Source of the DNA: a virus
Lineage: Duplodnaviria; Heunggongvirae; Uroviricota; Caudoviricetes
Reading direction: 5' to 3' (one strand)
DNA length: 13,122 bases
IMG/VR virus record: IMGVR_UViG_2526164662_000025
Part shown: positions 5,129 to 12,701 of the stretch, one piece after another
Numbering within the stretch: position 1 is the stretch's first letter
Layout: each line of letters starts with the position of its first letter
Translations under genes and position numbers: made by a program
The notes under the pieces: model-generated
Told to the model about the DNA's origin: nothing
The model's database searches: none
The model's input: only the letters and a program-made list of their open reading frames with translations

Positions 5129-6467
<1,339 letters not shown>

Positions 6468-6470
6468 GCC
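6468..6470. repeat. Right copy of the 3-bp target site duplication (GCC)
   Basis: Identical to 5207..5209. On the minus strand it encodes Gly106 of U, the codon at which the IS is inserted. Confidence 0.75.
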
Positions 6471-7725: not shown

Positions 7726-8092
7726 AAACAGCCATTCCACCATCAACGTGTGTTTTTGCATCTGAGGACATAATCAGAATCACCCGACCAACATCCGCAA
7801 GCTCAACGGATTCCCCCGTTTCACCATCAACGCCACAGAGATGGAGGCAGGTCAGAACTCTGATGCGCGTTAACGCGCCGGATGTTTCCTCACGAACATC
7901 ATGAGCCGCGTTTTCCCTCTCCCGGATATCCATATTCATAACCTGTACATCATCGCCGGATGACTGCATTTCCTCTTCCCATTCTGCCACCCGCTGCGCT
8001 ATCTCTGCGGCACTCCCGGATATATCCGGCTCACGCCCCAGAATCAGGGCCAGTTCATCAAGCCGTTTCAGATTTTGCTCTTTCGTTGCCAT
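7718..8092 (-). CDS. FI: DNA packaging / head assembly protein FI (lambda gpFI-like), about 124 aa
   Basis: Sits between E and FII as in lambda and is acidic with a flexible-looking central region. The start at 8092 (MATKEQNLKRLDELALILG...) has a strong RBS (cacAGGGGGAtgatATG); the track's upstream start at 8140 has none and would overlap the terminator-like hairpin. Sequence similarity to lambda FI is weaker than for neighbouring genes. Confidence 0.75.
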   Translation of the reverse strand: MATKEQNLKRLDELALILGREPDISGSAAEIAQRVAEWEEEMQSSGDDVQVMNMDIRERENAAHDVREETSGALTRIRVLTCLHLCGVDGETGESVELADVGRVILIMSSDAKTHVDGGMAVYA

Positions 8093-8106
8093 ATCATCCC
8101 CCTGTG

Positions 8107-8135
8107 AAAAAAGACACGGGGGCATTTCGCCCCCG
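8107..8135 (-). terminator. Intrinsic-terminator-like hairpin plus U-tract between E and FI (possible attenuator)
   Basis: Minus-strand RNA after the E stop would read CGGGGGC-GAAAU-GCCCCCG (7-bp all-GC stem) then UGUC UUUUUU, followed immediately by the FI Shine-Dalgarno. Confidence 0.4.
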
Positions 8136-8143
8136 CTCACGGA

Positions 8144-9172
8144 TTATTTCACCTGTACCACCACAAACTCATCCGGGTCCGGCAACACCATCAGCGGCGC
8201 GGACTGCGTCATGGTAAATTCACGGGCGGGATCCCCTACCGTCAGCCAGTGTTTCGGATAACGGGAAGAGGCCACCACACCTTCGGACAACGCCTGCGCA
8301 TCCTGAATGGCACCATAGCAACGAATGCCCTCTGCTGCCGTATTCCCCAGGACCAGCGAGCCCTCAGGCAGATAACGTTTTTCGGTACCGTCCTCTGCCA
8401 CATAAGACGTTTTTGCCACCACAATGGCCAGATCGCCGTAATACCCTTTGAAGGACACCACCGCGCCCAGGTCTTTCACCGCTGTTTCGAGTTGCGAATT
8501 AGAGCCGCGACGGGTATCCAGTTTTTCGCGGAACAATTTAAAGCCATTCAGCAGACGCCAGACGGTACCGTCCATAATGGCAATATTCACAAGACCGCTG
8601 GCCTGGTCGCAGTAGAGGTCAAGATCATGTGTAGGATCGAACGTGTCACGATCCTGTTTTGACCACTCCTTACCACTACCCTGAGTGATGTTATTCTTCG
8701 TCGACCTGCCAAAATCGACCTCAATTTTCTCGAACTGGTCTCCTTCCATCGTGTATTTGCCATACAGCACGGCATTCACCGCCTGCATTTCTTCCACCCG
8801 GACAATGGCGTGCTCTTCCTGTTTGAGGTTATCAGTGATGATACGCAGACGACGGTAGGCCGGGTCGTTCAGCTGAGCCGGATCTTCACCGGGAAGACGC
8901 TCAACCGCCTGCTGGTAATTAAATTCGTGTTTCGGCTTGACGTAGCCCGGACGTAACACGCGGGTTTCACCACCACGATGACGCAGCACTTTTCCTTCAA
9001 CAACCGGGGAAACATAGGCCGCCACCGGCGTTTTTCCGGTAATTTTGTCCAGCATCACCTCTTCGGTATGGAAATTCACCGTACGGCGGAAAAACAGCTC
9101 CAGAAACAGCGCACGAAATTTCACTTTTTGTTCGGTATAACCGAGTAACTGGCGGGTCGTAAACAATCCCAT
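8144..9172 (-). CDS. E: Major capsid protein E (lambda gpE-like), 342 aa
   Basis: MGLFTTRQLLGYTEQKVKFRALFLELFFRR...PGYVKPKHEFNYQ...VEEMQAVNAVLYGKYTMEGD...KLDTRRGSNSQLETAVKDLG...DPAREFTMTQSAPLMVLPDPDEFVVVQVK aligns along its whole length with lambda gpE (341 aa). RBS gAAAGGAActgatttATG. Confidence 0.95.
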   Translation of the reverse strand: MGLFTTRQLLGYTEQKVKFRALFLELFFRRTVNFHTEEVMLDKITGKTPVAAYVSPVVEGKVLRHRGGETRVLRPGYVKPKHEFNYQQAVERLPGEDPAQLNDPAYRRLRIITDNLKQEEHAIVRVEEMQAVNAVLYGKYTMEGDQFEKIEVDFGRSTKNNITQGSGKEWSKQDRDTFDPTHDLDLYCDQASGLVNIAIMDGTVWRLLNGFKLFREKLDTRRGSNSQLETAVKDLGAVVSFKGYYGDLAIVVAKTSYVAEDGTEKRYLPEGSLVLGNTAAEGIRCYGAIQDAQALSEGVVASSRYPKHWLTVGDPAREFTMTQSAPLMVLPDPDEFVVVQVK

Positions 9173-9200
9173 AAATCAGTTCCTTTCATTCAGAAATCAG

Positions 9201-9222
9201 TCAGGCCACCGCGGTGGCCTGA
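9201..9222. repeat. 22-bp perfect palindrome (TCAGGCCACCG|CGGTGGCCTGA) in the D-E intergenic region; potential RNA hairpin or protein-binding site
   Basis: Perfect dyad symmetry read directly from the sequence. It lies 8 nt after the D stop and about 28 nt before the E start; no canonical U-tract follows on the transcribed strand. Confidence 0.5.
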
Positions 9223-9229
9223 TAACGTG

Positions 9230-9577
9230 TTACGGCAGCGCCGCGTGACTCAGGGCACTGCCGGCAAAGGCGTTGGCCTTTTTGTGTTCATCCACACTTT
9301 CAGGCCAGCGGATTGCCTCCGTCGCAAAGGTCCCCGACTTGTAATAGGTCAGCGCCGTCTCTGTGCCTTCAAGCGGCAGTACCAGTATGCCAACCGCACT
9401 ACCGGCTTTCTGTCCGTCCCAGACCACCAGTTTCCCGGTGGCCTCATCCAGCATCAGGGGCGTCAGTGCCGGTGTTGCCGAGGAAATCCCGCTGCTGCCT
9501 GTGGCGGTATGAGCCGGATCATTACCGGCAAAAATACGTACTTCCGCACGCTGTTCAGTGATAGTTTTCGTCACCAT
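9230..9577 (-). CDS. D: Head decoration protein D (lambda gpD-like), 115 aa
   Basis: Shares motifs with lambda gpD (DPAHTAT, TPLMLD, WDG, AVGIL, YKSGTF, AFAG) and has similar length and position. Strong RBS (caacAGGAGGtttttacaatATG). Confidence 0.9.
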   Translation of the reverse strand: MVTKTITEQRAEVRIFAGNDPAHTATGSSGISSATPALTPLMLDEATGKLVVWDGQKAGSAVGILVLPLEGTETALTYYKSGTFATEAIRWPESVDEHKKANAFAGSALSHAALP

Positions 9578-9613
9578 ATTGTAAAAACCTCCTGTTGATG
9601 GTCAGCACTGGCT

Positions 9614-10216
9614 TCATGGCATGGCCATGAGCATTTTCACGTCCGCATCACCGTCTGCTGACGTCTGTGGCACGCCACCCTGTACCGCTGCCGGTGAATG
9701 GTTCGCCATGATGCGTTCAAACATGGCGGTTGTGGATGCAGAGACCGGTTCTGCCTTACCTGATCCCGCAGCCAGCACAGCCCGGGCGCTCTCCACAGTC
9801 ATTCCCGGGCAGGCAGCCAGCTGTTCAGCCTGCGCCTCAGCCCCTTTTGCCTCATCCAGTGCCATGATCTGATCACGGAGTGAGGGTCCGGCATCCGCCT
9901 GCGGTGAAGCAGCCAGGATCGGGCGGGCTTTTTCCACCGTCATCTCCGGCATCGCCGCCAGCGTTGCCGCCAGTTGTTCACGACCTTTCGCTTCTTCACA
10001 CGCCATAATGCGATCGGCTTCACTCTGCGCGGATGCCACCGGCTGCTGTGGTGCCGCCGCGGCCAGAATCGCCCGGGCCTGTTCAACGCTCATGCCCTGT
10101 TGTCCTGCCAGCATCGTGGCAAGCTGTTCACGTCCTTTCGCTTCCTGGCATGTCAGGATCCCCATCACTCGCTGGTTCTCCTGCGCGGCGGCTTCCGTTG
10201 CAGTTAATTGCGGCAT
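9614..10216 (-). CDS. Nu3: Candidate nested in-frame scaffold protein (Nu3-like), translated from an internal start within C, about 201 aa
   Basis: Internal ATG (Met302 of C, at 10214..10216) is preceded by a strong SD: minus strand reads gtcAGAGGAGGcactATG. In lambda, Nu3 is known to be made from an in-frame internal start within C. Sequence-context evidence only. Confidence 0.5.
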   Translation of the reverse strand: MPQLTATEAAAQENQRVMGILTCQEAKGREQLATMLAGQQGMSVEQARAILAAAAPQQPVASAQSEADRIMACEEAKGREQLAATLAAMPEMTVEKARPILAASPQADAGPSLRDQIMALDEAKGAEAQAEQLAACPGMTVESARAVLAAGSGKAEPVSASTTAMFERIMANHSPAAVQGGVPQTSADGDADVKMLMAMP

Positions 10217-11119
10217 AGTGCCTCCTCTGACATTACTGTTCAGCGCCGTGGCCATCACACTGATGGCATCCGACGCATTGATTAATTCATCCGCCAGCCC
10301 GGCCTCAATGCCGGACTGACCTTCAAAAACGGCGGCCTCTGTTCCCGTGACGGCATCAACAGACAGACCGGTATACATCGCTACTTTTTCAGCAAACATC
10401 CGGCGCGCCGCATCAATGCGCTGTTGCATGTCCTGGCGAACCTCTGCCGGCAACGCTTCAAACTGATTGCCATCCACCTTGTGCGCCCCTGAGTAAATCA
10501 GCGTGATATCAACACCGGCCTGCGCCAGATGACCGGCATAGCTGACATGGCTCATCATCACGCCAATGGAGCCGATACGGGATGTCTGGGTAACCAGCCG
10601 TCGGGAGCAGGCCGACGCCAGCAGCATGGCTGCAGAGCAGGCCGTGTCATTGCACAGTGCCCAGACCGGCTTCTGCTGACGGAGGCGGTAAATCATGTCA
10701 GCGCAGTCAAACGCGCCGGCGGCCTGCCCGCCCGGACTGTCAATGTCCAGCAGTACGCCCCGCACCTGGCTATCCGCCATTGCCTGCTGAAGACAGGCGA
10801 CAATGCCGTCATAGCCTGTCATTCCGGAAAATGGCCGCATACCCCCCAGCCGGTGCACCAGCGTGCCGGTCACCGGCAGTACAGCAATACCGTTCACCAC
10901 CCGGTAAACACGGGCCGGTCGTTTACCTCCGGCCATGTACTCGTCCGTTTCAGCCAGCATTCCGGGAGCATCAAACTGTACCTGCTGTTGTGGTACCGAA
11001 AGACTTGATGCCCCCATCTCGCGCCCGAGCGCGCAAAAGAAAACCCGCGCATAGGCGGGCTCCAGAAGCAGCGGTTCATTGAATGCTGCGGCAATAATGT
11101 GTGAAAGATTACGTCTCAC
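9614..11119 (-). CDS. C: Head maturation protease / scaffold protein C (lambda gpC-like, S49 SppA/ClpP-type peptidase domain plus C-terminal repeat-rich scaffold region), 501 aa
   Basis: N-terminal region (AAFNEPLLLEPAYARVFFCAL, GIAVLPVTGTL, KPVWALCND, SRRLVTQTSRIGSIGVMMSH, ITLIYSGAHKVDGN) matches lambda gpC. It lies between portal and D and overlaps the B stop. The C-terminal third contains tandem repeats. Confidence 0.9.
   Translation of the reverse strand: MRRNLSHIIAAAFNEPLLLEPAYARVFFCALGREMGASSLSVPQQQVQFDAPGMLAETDEYMAGGKRPARVYRVVNGIAVLPVTGTLVHRLGGMRPFSGMTGYDGIVACLQQAMADSQVRGVLLDIDSPGGQAAGAFDCADMIYRLRQQKPVWALCNDTACSAAMLLASACSRRLVTQTSRIGSIGVMMSHVSYAGHLAQAGVDITLIYSGAHKVDGNQFEALPAEVRQDMQQRIDAARRMFAEKVAMYTGLSVDAVTGTEAAVFEGQSGIEAGLADELINASDAISVMATALNSNVRGGTMPQLTATEAAAQENQRVMGILTCQEAKGREQLATMLAGQQGMSVEQARAILAAAAPQQPVASAQSEADRIMACEEAKGREQLAATLAAMPEMTVEKARPILAASPQADAGPSLRDQIMALDEAKGAEAQAEQLAACPGMTVESARAVLAAGSGKAEPVSASTTAMFERIMANHSPAAVQGGVPQTSADGDADVKMLMAMP
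9758..10180 (-). repeat. Three tandem, diverged ~45-aa (~140-150 bp) coding repeats in the C/Nu3 C-terminal region
   Basis: Protein repeats ENQRVMGILTCQEAKGREQLATMLAGQQGMSVEQARAILAAAAPQ / EADRIMACEEAKGREQLAATLAAMPEMTVEKARPILAASPQ / LRDQIMALDEAKGAEAQAEQLAACPGMTVESARAVLAAGSG, followed by a degenerate fourth (FERIMANHSPAAVQ). Confidence 0.65.
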
Positions 11120-12701
11120 GTGGTGTTGTCTCCTCTTCCGGCCTGCGACTCTCCGCTATCTGCTGCTCATACGCCTGCGCTATCCACACCGGACGTGAGA
11201 GTCCGGCTTTTTGTCGCTCAGCAGATTCCCTGACCTGCTGGCGGAAAATGTCCTGATAATCCTCGCCCATCAGCGCCAGCTCTTTCTCATACGTGCTCAG
11301 TCCGGCCTCAATGCGCATCACCGATTCCTGAACCTCCTTGAGCCCGTCAATGGCCATTCTTCCGGCTCCTATCCACTCTGCCCGTGACCAGGCTGATCGC
11401 GCCTGATAAAAATCAAAACGTGCCCGTGGCGGACGAATAATCCCCCGAAGAAGTGCCTCTTCCAGCCAGCAGGAAAACATCTGCGTGGCCAGCCGGGCCG
11501 CAATAAATTTTCGCCGCCCCATAAAATAGCGCCACGACTCATTGGCGGAGGCGCGGGCACTTGAGTAACTGACCTTCGAGTAATCACGGGACAACTGTTC
11601 GTAGGAAACGCCAAGACCGGCGGCGATATACCGCAGCAACGCCTGTTCAAGCGCAGAAAATCCATTGTCTGAATCCTGCGCAGTCTGTAGTTTCAGATCA
11701 TCACCAGGGAAAAGGTGCGGAATTTTGACACCGCCCAGTGTCACGTTATTCGTGTCATACCAGCTGGAGAACTTCTCCAGAATATTAATAAGCGGATTAT
11801 CTTTCTGCTCCTGTGGCGCGCCGGCGATATATTCAAAGGCCTTTTCGGTATCAAGTTCACTTTCAATCGTCGCTGCATACATGGCTTTCACAATGGCCGA
11901 CTGAAGCTGTGTTGCCTGCAGGGAATCCAGCATCTTCAGCCGTTCCATGACGCTGTAAAACTGATTAGCCCCACGGGTCTGCCCGTCCTCCACCGGCTCG
12001 AAAATATGCAGCATGGCCGGACGCCCGGTGGGTAGTTCACGCGGGATCCGTTCCCATCGTCCACTACCAGAGAACGGAAAATCATCCTCACAGATATGGT
12101 ACGCAACGGCACGGCCATATCGATCGACCTCCACCCCGGCCCGCAGAAAACGGTTCCCCATACCGTGTCCTGGCGTGTCCACCCGTTTCGGACTCACGGC
12201 TTTAAAACGCGTACGAAACAGTTGCGTGCTCTCCGTATCCCAGACCGGCTGCACAAAGATTTCGCCGTTAAACGCATGAACGCCCACACCTTCACGGATA
12301 AATTCCGTAAACGTGCGTTTCCCTTCCACGTCGATCTCGCCAGACATCCCTTCGGCGTATTCCGACCAGGCCGCCTCCACCTCATCGACAAAACTTTTTG
12401 CTGCAGTCTCCCGCATCCCCAGCCAGCGCCAGTTCGGACGGTAGCTGATCAGAAACATATGCCCGACAATATGATCCTTATGCAGTGCCACCGCATTGGC
12501 CGCTATCCCGTTATTGCGCACCAGATCATCTGCACGGGCATTGCCCAGACGCAACGCGGGCAACAGGGCCGCATCGGCACTCTGCGCCGGTGGCAACCAC
12601 TCCGCCATTTGCCCGCCAAATCCTGCACCGCCCCCGTTGTAGCTGAGGCTCTCCCGAAGCGGAACACCGTTCACATCAATCAGGACAGGCGTTCGTTTCA
12701 T
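11109..12701 (-). CDS. B: Portal protein B (lambda gpB-like), 530 aa
   Basis: Matches lambda gpB along its length as I recall it (for example GNARADDLVRNNG, FEPVEDGQTRGAN, LQSAIVKAMYAATIESELDT, LLRYIAAGLGVSYEQLSR, WIGAGRMAIDGLKEVQE). Its start overlaps the W stop as ATGA. Confidence 0.95.
   Translation of the reverse strand: MKRTPVLIDVNGVPLRESLSYNGGGAGFGGQMAEWLPPAQSADAALLPALRLGNARADDLVRNNGIAANAVALHKDHIVGHMFLISYRPNWRWLGMRETAAKSFVDEVEAAWSEYAEGMSGEIDVEGKRTFTEFIREGVGVHAFNGEIFVQPVWDTESTQLFRTRFKAVSPKRVDTPGHGMGNRFLRAGVEVDRYGRAVAYHICEDDFPFSGSGRWERIPRELPTGRPAMLHIFEPVEDGQTRGANQFYSVMERLKMLDSLQATQLQSAIVKAMYAATIESELDTEKAFEYIAGAPQEQKDNPLINILEKFSSWYDTNNVTLGGVKIPHLFPGDDLKLQTAQDSDNGFSALEQALLRYIAAGLGVSYEQLSRDYSKVSYSSARASANESWRYFMGRRKFIAARLATQMFSCWLEEALLRGIIRPPRARFDFYQARSAWSRAEWIGAGRMAIDGLKEVQESVMRIEAGLSTYEKELALMGEDYQDIFRQQVRESAERQKAGLSRPVWIAQAYEQQIAESRRPEEETTPRET

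What the first reader, a model, noticed from the sequence alone, without database searches (positions are those of the whole stretch)
9201..9222. 22-bp perfect palindrome between D and E
TCAGGCCACCGCGGTGGCCTGA is a perfect inverted repeat (centre CCGCGG) placed 8 nt after the decoration gene stop and upstream of the capsid gene RBS. A perfect palindrome of this length is unlikely by chance in a 57-bp spacer. It could form a stable RNA hairpin (processing or stability element, translational modulator for E) or be a dimeric protein-binding site. No U-tract follows, so it is not a classic intrinsic terminator.
Basis: seen in the sequence. Interest (0 to 1): 0.35.

Follow-up and report, generated by a model that had tools for sequence, protein, structure and literature searches.

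The report
Stem-loop between phage decoration and capsid genes
The 22-base palindrome is real, and it is the phage-21 version of an RNA hairpin that lambda-like phages keep between their head-decoration and major-capsid genes; it is an ordinary terminator-type stem-loop that has lost its U tail, not a new kind of element.

Summary
TCAGGCCACCGCGGTGGCCTGA (9201-9222) is a perfect 11+11 palindrome and the longest in the window and in the whole phage 21 genome. The late genes run on the minus strand. The palindrome lies 7 nt (not 8) after the stop of the decoration gene (shp/D) and 28 nt before the capsid gene (gp7/E) ATG.

As mRNA it folds into a 9-bp stem with a 4-nt loop (-16.8 kcal/mol).

- Among close relatives the loop varies freely. 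Only 2 of at least 12 variants stay perfect palindromes.
- The stem is as conserved as non-synonymous codon positions.
- Lambda, mEp237, Gifsy-1 and other lambdoid phages carry an alignable hairpin (core AGGCCRC...GYGGCCU) at the same place. Four of its nine pairs are kept through compensatory changes.
- Those relatives have a U tract, and mEp237's depositors annotate theirs as a rho-independent terminator. The phage-21 lineage has lost the U tract, and its hairpin sits too close to the stop codon to terminate well.

Most likely role (inferred, not shown): a barrier to 3'-exonuclease decay, or a residual weak terminator, in the Q-antiterminated late mRNA. A DNA protein-binding site, an RNase III site and occlusion of the E ribosome-binding site are not supported. 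This is a new member of a known kind and of low interest.

The parts
9201..9222 (-). Core stem-loop: 9-bp stem UCAGGCCAC/GUGGCCUGA with 4-nt loop CGCG. As DNA it is a perfect 22-bp palindrome.
   Evidence: -16.8 kcal/mol. Stem diversity is low and loop diversity high. Compensatory changes occur across lineages.
9196..9226 (-). Possible weak extension of the helix (GUUA / UGAU with a bulged C) in the minimum-free-energy fold.
   Evidence: It includes two G-U pairs and is not tested for conservation.
9230..9232 (-). TAA stop codon of the decoration gene (shp / lambda D homologue, 9230-9577), 7 nt upstream of the hairpin.
9173..9200 (-). Single-stranded A/U-rich leader of the capsid gene (CUGAUUUCUGAAUGAAAGGAACUGAUUU). 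It holds the Shine-Dalgarno AGGA at 9184-9181 and two CUGAUUU repeats. It is not a U tract.
   Evidence: U-tract score is 1.1-1.25 against 4.3-4.95 in relatives. The ribosome-binding site is annotated in phage 21 records.
8144..9172 (-). Major capsid protein gene (gp7 / lambda E homologue), the cistron downstream of the hairpin.
   Evidence: Phage_cap_E, E = 1.5e-66.
8116..8136 (-). Companion hairpin directly after the capsid gene stop: GCGGGGGCG-AAA-UGCCCCCGU (9 pairs, 3-nt loop) followed by GUCUUUUUUC. It is terminator-like, so the capsid gene is bracketed by two hairpins.

Best explanation
The palindrome is the DNA image of an intercistronic RNA stem-loop in the late (head) mRNA of a phage-21-type lambdoid prophage. 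It is homologous to the GC-rich hairpin that lambda, mEp237/N15-type, Gifsy-1-type and other lambdoid head modules carry between the decoration gene and the capsid gene. In those relatives the hairpin has the full shape of an intrinsic terminator.

In the phage-21 lineage the stem is kept but the U tract is lost, and the hairpin sits only 7 nt behind the stop codon. It is therefore expected to terminate poorly.

Shown here: the structure, its position, its homology, purifying selection on the stem, compensatory evolution across lineages, and a neutral loop.

Inferred: because late transcription is Q-antiterminated, the hairpin probably acts mainly after transcription. It would stop 3'-to-5' exonucleases once the A/U-rich leader downstream has been cut, and so prolong the life of the upstream mRNA segment that contains D. 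The companion hairpin after E would do the same for E. A residual ability to pause or stop unmodified RNA polymerase may remain.

The perfect palindromy of the centre is incidental. A 4-nt loop that happens to read CGCG is self-complementary.
For: - Fold: 9-bp stem with a 4-nt loop, -16.8 kcal/mol. It dominates the centroid structure of the spacer.
- Distribution: identical in phage 21. The locus is present in 1944 of 5426 complete E. coli genomes.
- Diversity in 86 IMG/VR contigs: pi is 0.013 in the stem, 0.080 and 0.152 at third codon positions of D and E, 0.017-0.021 at first and second positions, and 0.22 in the loop. P = 0.0015 that 16 random third positions are as conserved as the stem.
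- Variants: only 2 of at least 12 are perfect palindromes, and all still fold (-5.9 to -17.6 kcal/mol). A stepwise path CGCG > CGUG > CAUG is seen in the loop.
- Cross-lineage alignment: shared core AGGCCRC-loop-GYGGCCU. 96% of cells are paired, 4 of 9 pairs have compensatory changes (U-A/G-U/A-U, C-G/A-U, G-C/G-U/A-U, A-U/G-U/G-C), and the covariation score is 0.349 against 0.145 in shuffles (0 of 500 reach it).
- Survey of 17 head modules of the capsid-E family: 10 of 11 with a D-E spacer of at least 50 nt hold a hairpin of -11.8 kcal/mol or better, none of 6 with a spacer of 28 nt or less do, and all 17 have a hairpin after E.
- Phage 21 late operon: the only four spacers of at least 50 nt each hold a strong hairpin.
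- Annotation: mEp237's depositors mark their D-E hairpin as a rho-independent terminator.
- U-tract score: 1.1-1.25 here against 4.3-4.95 in lambda, mEp237, 783R5, Serratia and Vibrio.
- Literature: a terminator 8-9 bp from a stop codon is almost fully repressed in vivo (PMC4824070). Terminator hairpins raise upstream transcript abundance (PMC11696848).
Against: - No RNA 3'-end, half-life or protein-ratio data exist for this site, so the stabiliser role is pure inference.
- Within the phage-21 lineage no compensatory double change was seen. Stem-mismatch variants (C6/A17, C7/A16, A8/C15, one deletion) occur in several contigs, so the constraint is not absolute.
- The 12 spacer positions outside the hairpin that were free to vary are also little varied, so part of the stem's conservation could be a regional effect.
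- Covariation rests on about five lineages. Similar GC-rich terminators can also arise by convergence.
- Most relatives keep a U tract, which an exonuclease barrier does not need. The ancestral role may therefore be true termination.
- Phage 21's major tail gene, also highly expressed, has no such hairpin after it.
Confidence: 0.55

Rival explanations
1. It is a working intrinsic terminator or insulator. It stops RNA polymerase that has not been modified by Q (spurious or read-in transcription in the lysogen or early in infection), or it terminates a fraction of late transcripts to grade expression along the operon.
For: It is homologous to hairpins with canonical U tracts in lambda, mEp237, 783R5, Serratia and Vibrio modules. 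One of these is annotated as a rho-independent terminator. The simple terminator scan lists this site. Authors of the phage L genome propose exactly these roles for intra-operon terminators in lambdoid late operons (PMC8022706).
Against: The U-tract score is 1.1-1.25 against 4.3-4.95 in the relatives. The first four tail bases are CUGA. The hairpin is 7 nt from the stop codon, a distance at which lambda tR2 was almost fully repressed by the terminating ribosome (PMC4824070). The richly annotated phage 21 record marks terminators at I-J and J-stf but none here. A terminator in front of the most needed head gene would be counterproductive.
Confidence: 0.2
2. It is a decaying relic: a former terminator hairpin that lost its U tract, is now neutral, and persists only because the lineage is young.
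For: All phage-21-type copies are at least 95% identical around it. Stem-mismatch variants exist in several contigs. No compensatory change was seen within the lineage.
Against: Stem diversity is 6- to 12-fold below that of neighbouring third codon positions, while the 4-nt loop inside it is as variable as synonymous sites. The A-U pair at position 8 differs from the G-C pair of relatives through a both-sided change, with a G-U intermediate present.
Confidence: 0.15
3. It modulates translation of the capsid gene. It could uncouple E initiation from ribosomes that terminate at D, or insulate the E initiation region from upstream structure.
For: It lies between the D stop and the E ribosome-binding site. 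The E leader downstream is predicted to be largely unpaired.
Against: Predicted unpaired probability of the E initiation region is 0.54 in the wild type, 0.44-0.54 in arm-scrambled mutants and 0.50 with the hairpin deleted. The hairpin does not touch the Shine-Dalgarno sequence. Relatives with no D-E spacer at all (Chi, PhAER-2, MA12) manage without it.
Confidence: 0.07
4. It is a DNA-level site: a binding site for a dimeric protein, or a cruciform or recombination signal.
For: It has perfect dyad symmetry over 22 bp. A variable centre is also typical of dimer operators.
Against: The copy is unique in the window and in the phage 21 genome, and only one stray half-site exists, inside exo. Most natural variants are asymmetric. 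Related lineages change both arms in a way that keeps pairing, not sequence. No regulator is known or needed inside the late operon.
Confidence: 0.03

Closest known systems
Lambda-family D-E intercistronic hairpin: lambda 6100-6125 region AAAGGCCGC-CUGU-GCGGCUUUUUUU, and mEp237 5938-5958, annotated 'rho-independent terminator'
   Same: It has the same position between the decoration and capsid genes, the same strand, a 9-bp GC-rich stem, a 3-4-nt loop and an alignable core AGGCCRC...GYGGCCU. The pairs are maintained by compensatory changes.
   Different: The phage-21 version has no U tract (score 1.1-1.25 against 4.7). It lies 7 nt rather than about 20-30 nt behind the stop codon. Its loop happens to be self-complementary, which makes the DNA a perfect palindrome.
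Intra-operon terminator-like hairpins of lambdoid late operons (discussed for P22-like phage L, PMC8022706)
   Same: Both are GC-rich hairpins inside a single Q-type antiterminated late operon, next to the procapsid genes. Their role is stated there to be unknown. Phage 21 itself has annotated ones at I-J and J-stf.
   Different: Those examples are predicted terminators with U tracts. This one lacks the U tract and is not annotated in either phage 21 record.
Intercistronic mRNA-stabilising stem-loops, such as REP elements between malE and malF, and terminator hairpins that raise upstream mRNA abundance (PMC11696848). The REP example is from established knowledge, not tested here.
   Same: All are stable stem-loops in a transcribed spacer, 3' of a highly expressed cistron, and do not require a U tract. 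This is the proposed way of working.
   Different: It is not a REP by sequence: the copy is unique and there is no Rfam match. Stabilisation has not been measured.
T7 T-phi terminator after the major capsid gene 10 (established knowledge, used as an analogy only)
   Same: It is a hairpin placed next to the major capsid gene that shapes the relative abundance of the capsid message.
   Different: T-phi is a true, partly efficient terminator for T7 RNA polymerase and lies after, not before, the capsid gene. The analogue here is rather the 8116-8136 hairpin.

Membership tests
Intrinsic (Rho-independent) terminator | GC-rich RNA hairpin in the sense strand | tested here: met
   9 pairs, 6 of them G-C, 4-nt loop, -16.8 kcal/mol.
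Intrinsic (Rho-independent) terminator | U-rich tract of about 7-9 nt immediately 3' of the stem | tested here: not met
   The tail is CUGAUUUCUG. The decaying-weight U score is 1.1-1.25 against 4.3-4.95 for lambda, mEp237, 783R5, Serratia and Vibrio homologues.
Intrinsic (Rho-independent) terminator | Far enough from the upstream stop codon for the hairpin to form behind RNA polymerase | tested here: not met
   It is 7 nt from TAA. tR2 placed 8-9 bp from a stop codon was almost fully repressed, with full activity beyond 30 bp (PMC4824070).
Intrinsic (Rho-independent) terminator | RNA 3' ends generated at the site | not testable with these tools
   No transcript-end data are available.
Lambda-family D-E intercistronic hairpin (homology group) | Same position, between the HDPD-family decoration gene and the Phage_cap_E capsid gene, on the sense strand | tested here: met
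Lambda-family D-E intercistronic hairpin (homology group) | Alignable sequence core, with pairing conserved through compensatory change | tested here: met
   Alignment A2 aligns the stem columns without gaps. 96.1% of cells are paired, 4 of 9 pairs change on both sides, and 0 of 500 shuffles reach the covariation score. Caveat: about five independent lineages.
mRNA-stabilising intercistronic stem-loop (functional class) | Stable stem-loop in the transcribed spacer, with the stem under purifying selection and the loop free | tested here: met
   pi is 0.013 in the stem, 0.22 in the loop and 0.08-0.15 at third codon positions, P = 0.0015.
mRNA-stabilising intercistronic stem-loop (functional class) | Upstream mRNA segment accumulates or lives longer because of the hairpin | not testable with these tools
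   This needs Northern blots, Rend-seq and half-life measurements.
REP/BIME or other repeated palindromic element; any Rfam family | Multiple dispersed copies, or a match to a curated model | tested here: not met
   There is a single copy in the window and in the phage 21 genome. No Rfam match at gathering score or at E <= 1.
RNase III processing site | About 20 bp or more of near-continuous double-stranded RNA | tested here: not met
   9 bp, or at most 13 with a bulge and G-U pairs. The length requirement comes from established knowledge.
Operator for a dimeric DNA-binding protein | Dyad symmetry conserved as sequence, usually in more than one copy, with a cognate regulator | tested here: not met
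   The copy is unique. All but two of the natural variants are asymmetric. Related lineages conserve pairing, not half-site sequence.

The most novel reading that the evidence does not exclude
The two hairpins that bracket the capsid gene may form one device. One lies after the decoration gene and, here, has lost its U tract. The other lies after the capsid gene and was found in all 17 surveyed capsid-E head modules, from enterobacteria to Vibrio, Burkholderia and Sinorhizobium. Together they could be a conserved, never-tested post-transcriptional mechanism that carves out and stabilises the D and E message segments. That would set the roughly 400-copy stoichiometry of these two proteins inside an operon whose transcription cannot be graded because it is antiterminated. 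On this reading the phage-21 version would be a pure decay barrier that has shed its terminator function.
Probability: 0.3. Interest if true: 0.4.

Novelty: new member of a known kind. Interest (0 to 1): 0.15.

Why it matters
The practical value is modest. The finding explains an eye-catching palindrome that is present in about a third of complete E. coli genomes, inside phage-21-type prophage head modules that include those of many O157, O111 and O145 strains. It is unannotated even in the carefully curated phage 21 record.

It also links the palindrome to lambda's D-E hairpin. And it offers a natural 'hairpin without U tract' allele with which the two proposed roles of intra-operon terminators in lambdoid late operons could be separated experimentally: stopping transcription and protecting mRNA.

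It does not reveal a new kind of element.

Tried and rejected
- **Rfam.** Searches at the gathering threshold over the whole window and at E <= 1 over 8050-9650 found nothing at the site.
- **Literature.** Nine searches found no paper on the phage 21 shp-7 spacer, the lambda D-E hairpin or lambda late-mRNA 3' ends. A look-up of the Casjens and Hendrix lambda review by PMC id failed. Only general statements could be cited.
- **A false 'independent' hairpin.** L043/L129 seemed to show an unrelated hairpin fused to the same E leader. It is the end of an IS200-family element inserted in the spacer (Y1_Tnp), so it was excluded from the survey.
- **Alignment-based scan of viral contigs.** It returned only close relatives, because the best 80 hits are kept. 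Diversity was obtained instead from a tblastn spread over GenBank phages and from scans with lambda E and Gifsy-1 E.
- **Protein-binding reading.** No second copy and no conserved half-site were found.
- **Occlusion of the E ribosome-binding site.** The predicted effect is negligible.
- **Bidirectional terminator.** The plus-strand tail is UAACGUG, with no U tract.
- **Compensatory changes within the phage-21 lineage.** None were found, only one-sided changes and G-U intermediates.

Full report
**1. Observation**

The window carries, on its minus strand, the head and tail genes of a phage-21-type lambdoid prophage:
- portal, 11109-12701
- S49 protease/scaffold, 9614-11119
- decoration protein (Pfam HDPD), 9230-9577
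- major capsid protein (Pfam Phage_cap_E), 8144-9172
- FI- and FII-like genes downstream

The 701 bases around the finding are 98.4% identical to phage 21 genes shp and 7.

The 22-mer TCAGGCCACCGCGGTGGCCTGA is at 9201-9222 exactly as reported. Its two 11-nt arms are 100% complementary with nothing between them. The spacer is 57 nt. The Shine-Dalgarno AGGA is at 9184-9181.

It is the longest perfect palindrome in the window and in the complete 42.9-kb phage 21 genome, where the next longest has 14 nt. An arm of 11 or more appeared in only 2 of 500 dinucleotide shuffles of the whole window.

**2. What it is**

As sense-strand RNA the 22-mer folds into a 9-bp stem (UCAGGCCAC/GUGGCCUGA) closed by the 4-nt loop CGCG, at -16.8 kcal/mol. 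This hairpin dominates the centroid structure of the spacer. The centre of a perfect palindrome cannot pair in a hairpin, so the 'CCGCGG centre' is simply the closing pair plus the loop.

The spacer is identical in both phage 21 records. The locus occurs in 1944 of 5426 complete E. coli genomes.

Scans of IMG/VR contigs gave at least 12 variants of the 22-mer:
- The loop and closing pair vary freely: CCATGG, CCGTGG, CCACGG, CTGCGG, CCGCGT, CCGCGC. A stepwise path CGCG > CGUG > CAUG is visible.
- Only two variants are still perfect palindromes.
- All variants still fold (-5.9 to -17.6 kcal/mol).

In 86 contigs (72 distinct haplotypes) retrieved by an exact match to the capsid-gene leader alone, nucleotide diversity was as follows:

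| Positions | Diversity (pi) |
|---|---|
| 16 stem positions | 0.013 |
| Third codon positions of D | 0.080 |
| Third codon positions of E | 0.152 |
| First and second codon positions | 0.017-0.021 |
| Loop | 0.22 |

Sixteen random third positions are as conserved as the stem with P = 0.0015. The stem is therefore constrained and the loop is not.

There are caveats. The few other free spacer positions are also little varied. Stem-mismatch variants occur in a handful of contigs. Within this young lineage no both-sided compensatory change was seen.

**3. Relatives elsewhere**

The same spacer in other lambdoid head modules holds a hairpin of the same size.

| Module | Hairpin and tail |
|---|---|
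| Lambda | AAAGGCCGC-CUGU-GCGGCUUUUUUU |
| mEp237 (N15-type) | AAAAGCCGC-UUGC-GCGGCUUUUUUU |
| Gifsy-1 | GAAGGCCGC-GAA-GCGGCCUUU |
| A Salmonella-type group (L423, L426, L429) | GCAGGCCGC-ACA-GCGGCCUGU, then UCUGUUUUU |

The mEp237 hairpin is annotated by its depositors as a 'rho-independent terminator'.

These align with the phage-21 hairpin with no gaps in the stem, around a common core AGGCCRC...GYGGCCU. Results on the 9-pair structure:
- 96.1% of cells form standard pairs, against 85% in shuffles and 18-44% when the partner is slid by one to three columns.
- Four of nine pairs show changes on both sides: U-A/G-U/A-U, C-G/A-U, G-C/G-U/A-U and A-U/G-U/G-C.
- The covariation score is 0.349 against 0.145, and 0 of 500 shuffles reach it.

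The number of independent lineages is small (about five). Still, the picture is that of one homologous hairpin maintained by compensatory evolution.

A wider survey covered 17 capsid-E head modules, after excluding one that proved to be an IS insertion:
- Of 11 modules with a D-E spacer of at least 50 nt, 10 contain a hairpin of -11.8 kcal/mol or better.
- The 6 modules with a spacer of 28 nt or less contain none.
- All 17 have a hairpin directly after the capsid gene, including this window (8116-8136, followed by GUCUUUUUUC).

In phage 21's late operon the only four spacers of 50 nt or more (D-E, E-FI, I-J, J-stf) each hold a strong hairpin. The curators annotated the last two as terminators but not the first two.

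**4. How it differs, and how it probably works**

The relatives' hairpins are followed by canonical U tracts. A decaying-weight U score gives 4.3-4.95 for them and 3.2 for Gifsy-1. The phage-21 hairpin is followed by CUGAUUUCUG and scores 1.1-1.25. It is also only 7 nt from the stop codon. In a controlled in vivo system, lambda tR2 placed 8-9 bp from a stop codon was almost fully repressed by the terminating ribosome and reached full efficiency only beyond 30 bp (PMC4824070). Two defining features of an intrinsic terminator are thus not met.

Late transcription in these phages is carried out by Q-modified, terminator-resistant polymerase; the Q gene and its binding element are annotated in phage 21. 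So even the canonical versions are thought to be read through in lytic growth. The authors of the phage L genome state that such intra-operon terminators are common in lambdoid late operons and that 'their roles are not known'. They suggest partial termination, or stopping transcription that lacks antitermination (PMC8022706).

For the U-less phage-21 version the property that remains, and that selection can still see, is the stable RNA stem. I therefore rank highest a post-transcriptional role as a barrier to 3'-to-5' exonucleases. Such a barrier would protect the upstream D-containing segment after endonucleolytic cleavage in the A/U-rich single-stranded leader just downstream. This agrees with the general finding that terminator hairpins raise upstream transcript abundance (PMC11696848), and with the classical behaviour of intercistronic stem-loops (established knowledge, not tested here). 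This step is inferred, not shown.

**5. Rivals**

- **A working terminator or insulator (0.2).** It is favoured by homology but opposed by the missing U tract and the 7-nt distance.
- **A neutral relic (0.15).** It is opposed by the contrast in diversity between stem and loop.
- **Modulation of E translation (0.07).** It is weakly supported at best. Predicted accessibility of the E initiation region is 0.54 in the wild type, 0.44-0.54 with either arm scrambled and 0.50 with the hairpin deleted. Several relatives have no D-E spacer at all.
- **A dimeric protein-binding site or other DNA-level signal (0.03).** It is not supported, for three reasons: the copy is unique, most variants are asymmetric, and related lineages conserve pairing rather than sequence.
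- **An RNase III site.** It is excluded by length.
- **A curated RNA family.** No Rfam family matches.

**6. Novelty and verdict**

The class is known, and lambda-type members have been annotated as predicted terminators. The phage-21 member is unannotated in both GenBank records, and I found no paper that discusses it. It is a new member of a known kind: a terminator-type intercistronic hairpin that has lost its U tract. Interest is low (0.15).

The most novel reading not excluded is that the pair of hairpins bracketing the capsid gene forms a conserved device that sets stoichiometry through mRNA stability (probability about 0.3). Decisive tests are 3'-end mapping after induction, in vitro termination assays, and stem-disrupting and compensatory mutants.

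Noticed in passing
window 8116-8136 (- strand): A second, terminator-like hairpin lies directly after the capsid gene stop: GCGGGGGCG-AAA-UGCCCCCGU plus GUCUUUUUUC. It sits in the 51-nt spacer before the FI-like gene and is not annotated in either phage 21 record. An equivalent hairpin follows the capsid gene in all 17 capsid-E head modules surveyed.
   Followed up: partly
window about 5198-6470 (+ strand): An IS3-family insertion sequence (orfA 5246-5593 with HTH_Tnp_1, orfB 5713-6459 with rve) sits antisense inside the late operon. It appears to truncate the tail-terminator gene U: the Pfam match covers profile positions 1-109 of 130. The prophage is therefore probably defective in tail assembly. 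The same IS has 9788 places in E. coli genomes.
   Followed up: partly
window 5278-5400 (+ strand): There is a full-length Rfam match to isrC, an 'Hfq binding RNA' (RF01387, 150 bits). It lies entirely inside orfA of the IS3-family element, so the match probably reflects IS sequence rather than a prophage sRNA gene.
   Followed up: partly
L129 (= L043) 1-416, IMG/VR contig IMGVR_UViG_2654587509_000011: An IS200-family element (Y1_Tnp transposase, with terminal hairpin CCUCCGGC-UAU-GCCGGAGG) is inserted in the D-E spacer. It joins the capsid-gene leader at ...ATTTCTGAATG, a few bases 3' of where the palindrome ends. The contig starts inside the IS, so the other junction is unseen.
   Followed up: partly
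window 9194-9200 and 9173-9179 (- strand): The heptamer CUGAUUU occurs twice in the 28-nt leader, once right after the hairpin and once right before the ATG. GA/UUU resembles the A/U-rich single-stranded sites preferred by RNase E (from memory, not tested).
   Followed up: no
L425 and L427 (IMG/VR), D-E spacer: Two Salmonella-type relatives carry a partial duplication of the hairpin arms (CAGGCTACAGGCCGCACAGCGGCAGCGGCCTG). This suggests slippage or repair at the stem-loop.
   Followed up: no
GenBank MT713136.1 (Aeromonas phage AP1, 254 kb) 250152-250396: This record holds 245 nt that are 98.4% identical to the start of this E. coli prophage's capsid gene (bases 428-672 of a 701-base query), with no feature annotated there. 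It looks like contamination or a chimeric assembly. OR849869.1, 'Staphylococcus phage SA 1298 Kay', likewise carries a Chi-like capsid gene.
   Followed up: no
phage 21 record M81255 5542-5936 (window roughly 9750-10150, - strand): The depositors annotate three repeats of about 110 nt, the 'Tri boxes', inside the scaffold gene, with function unknown. They were not examined here.
   Followed up: no
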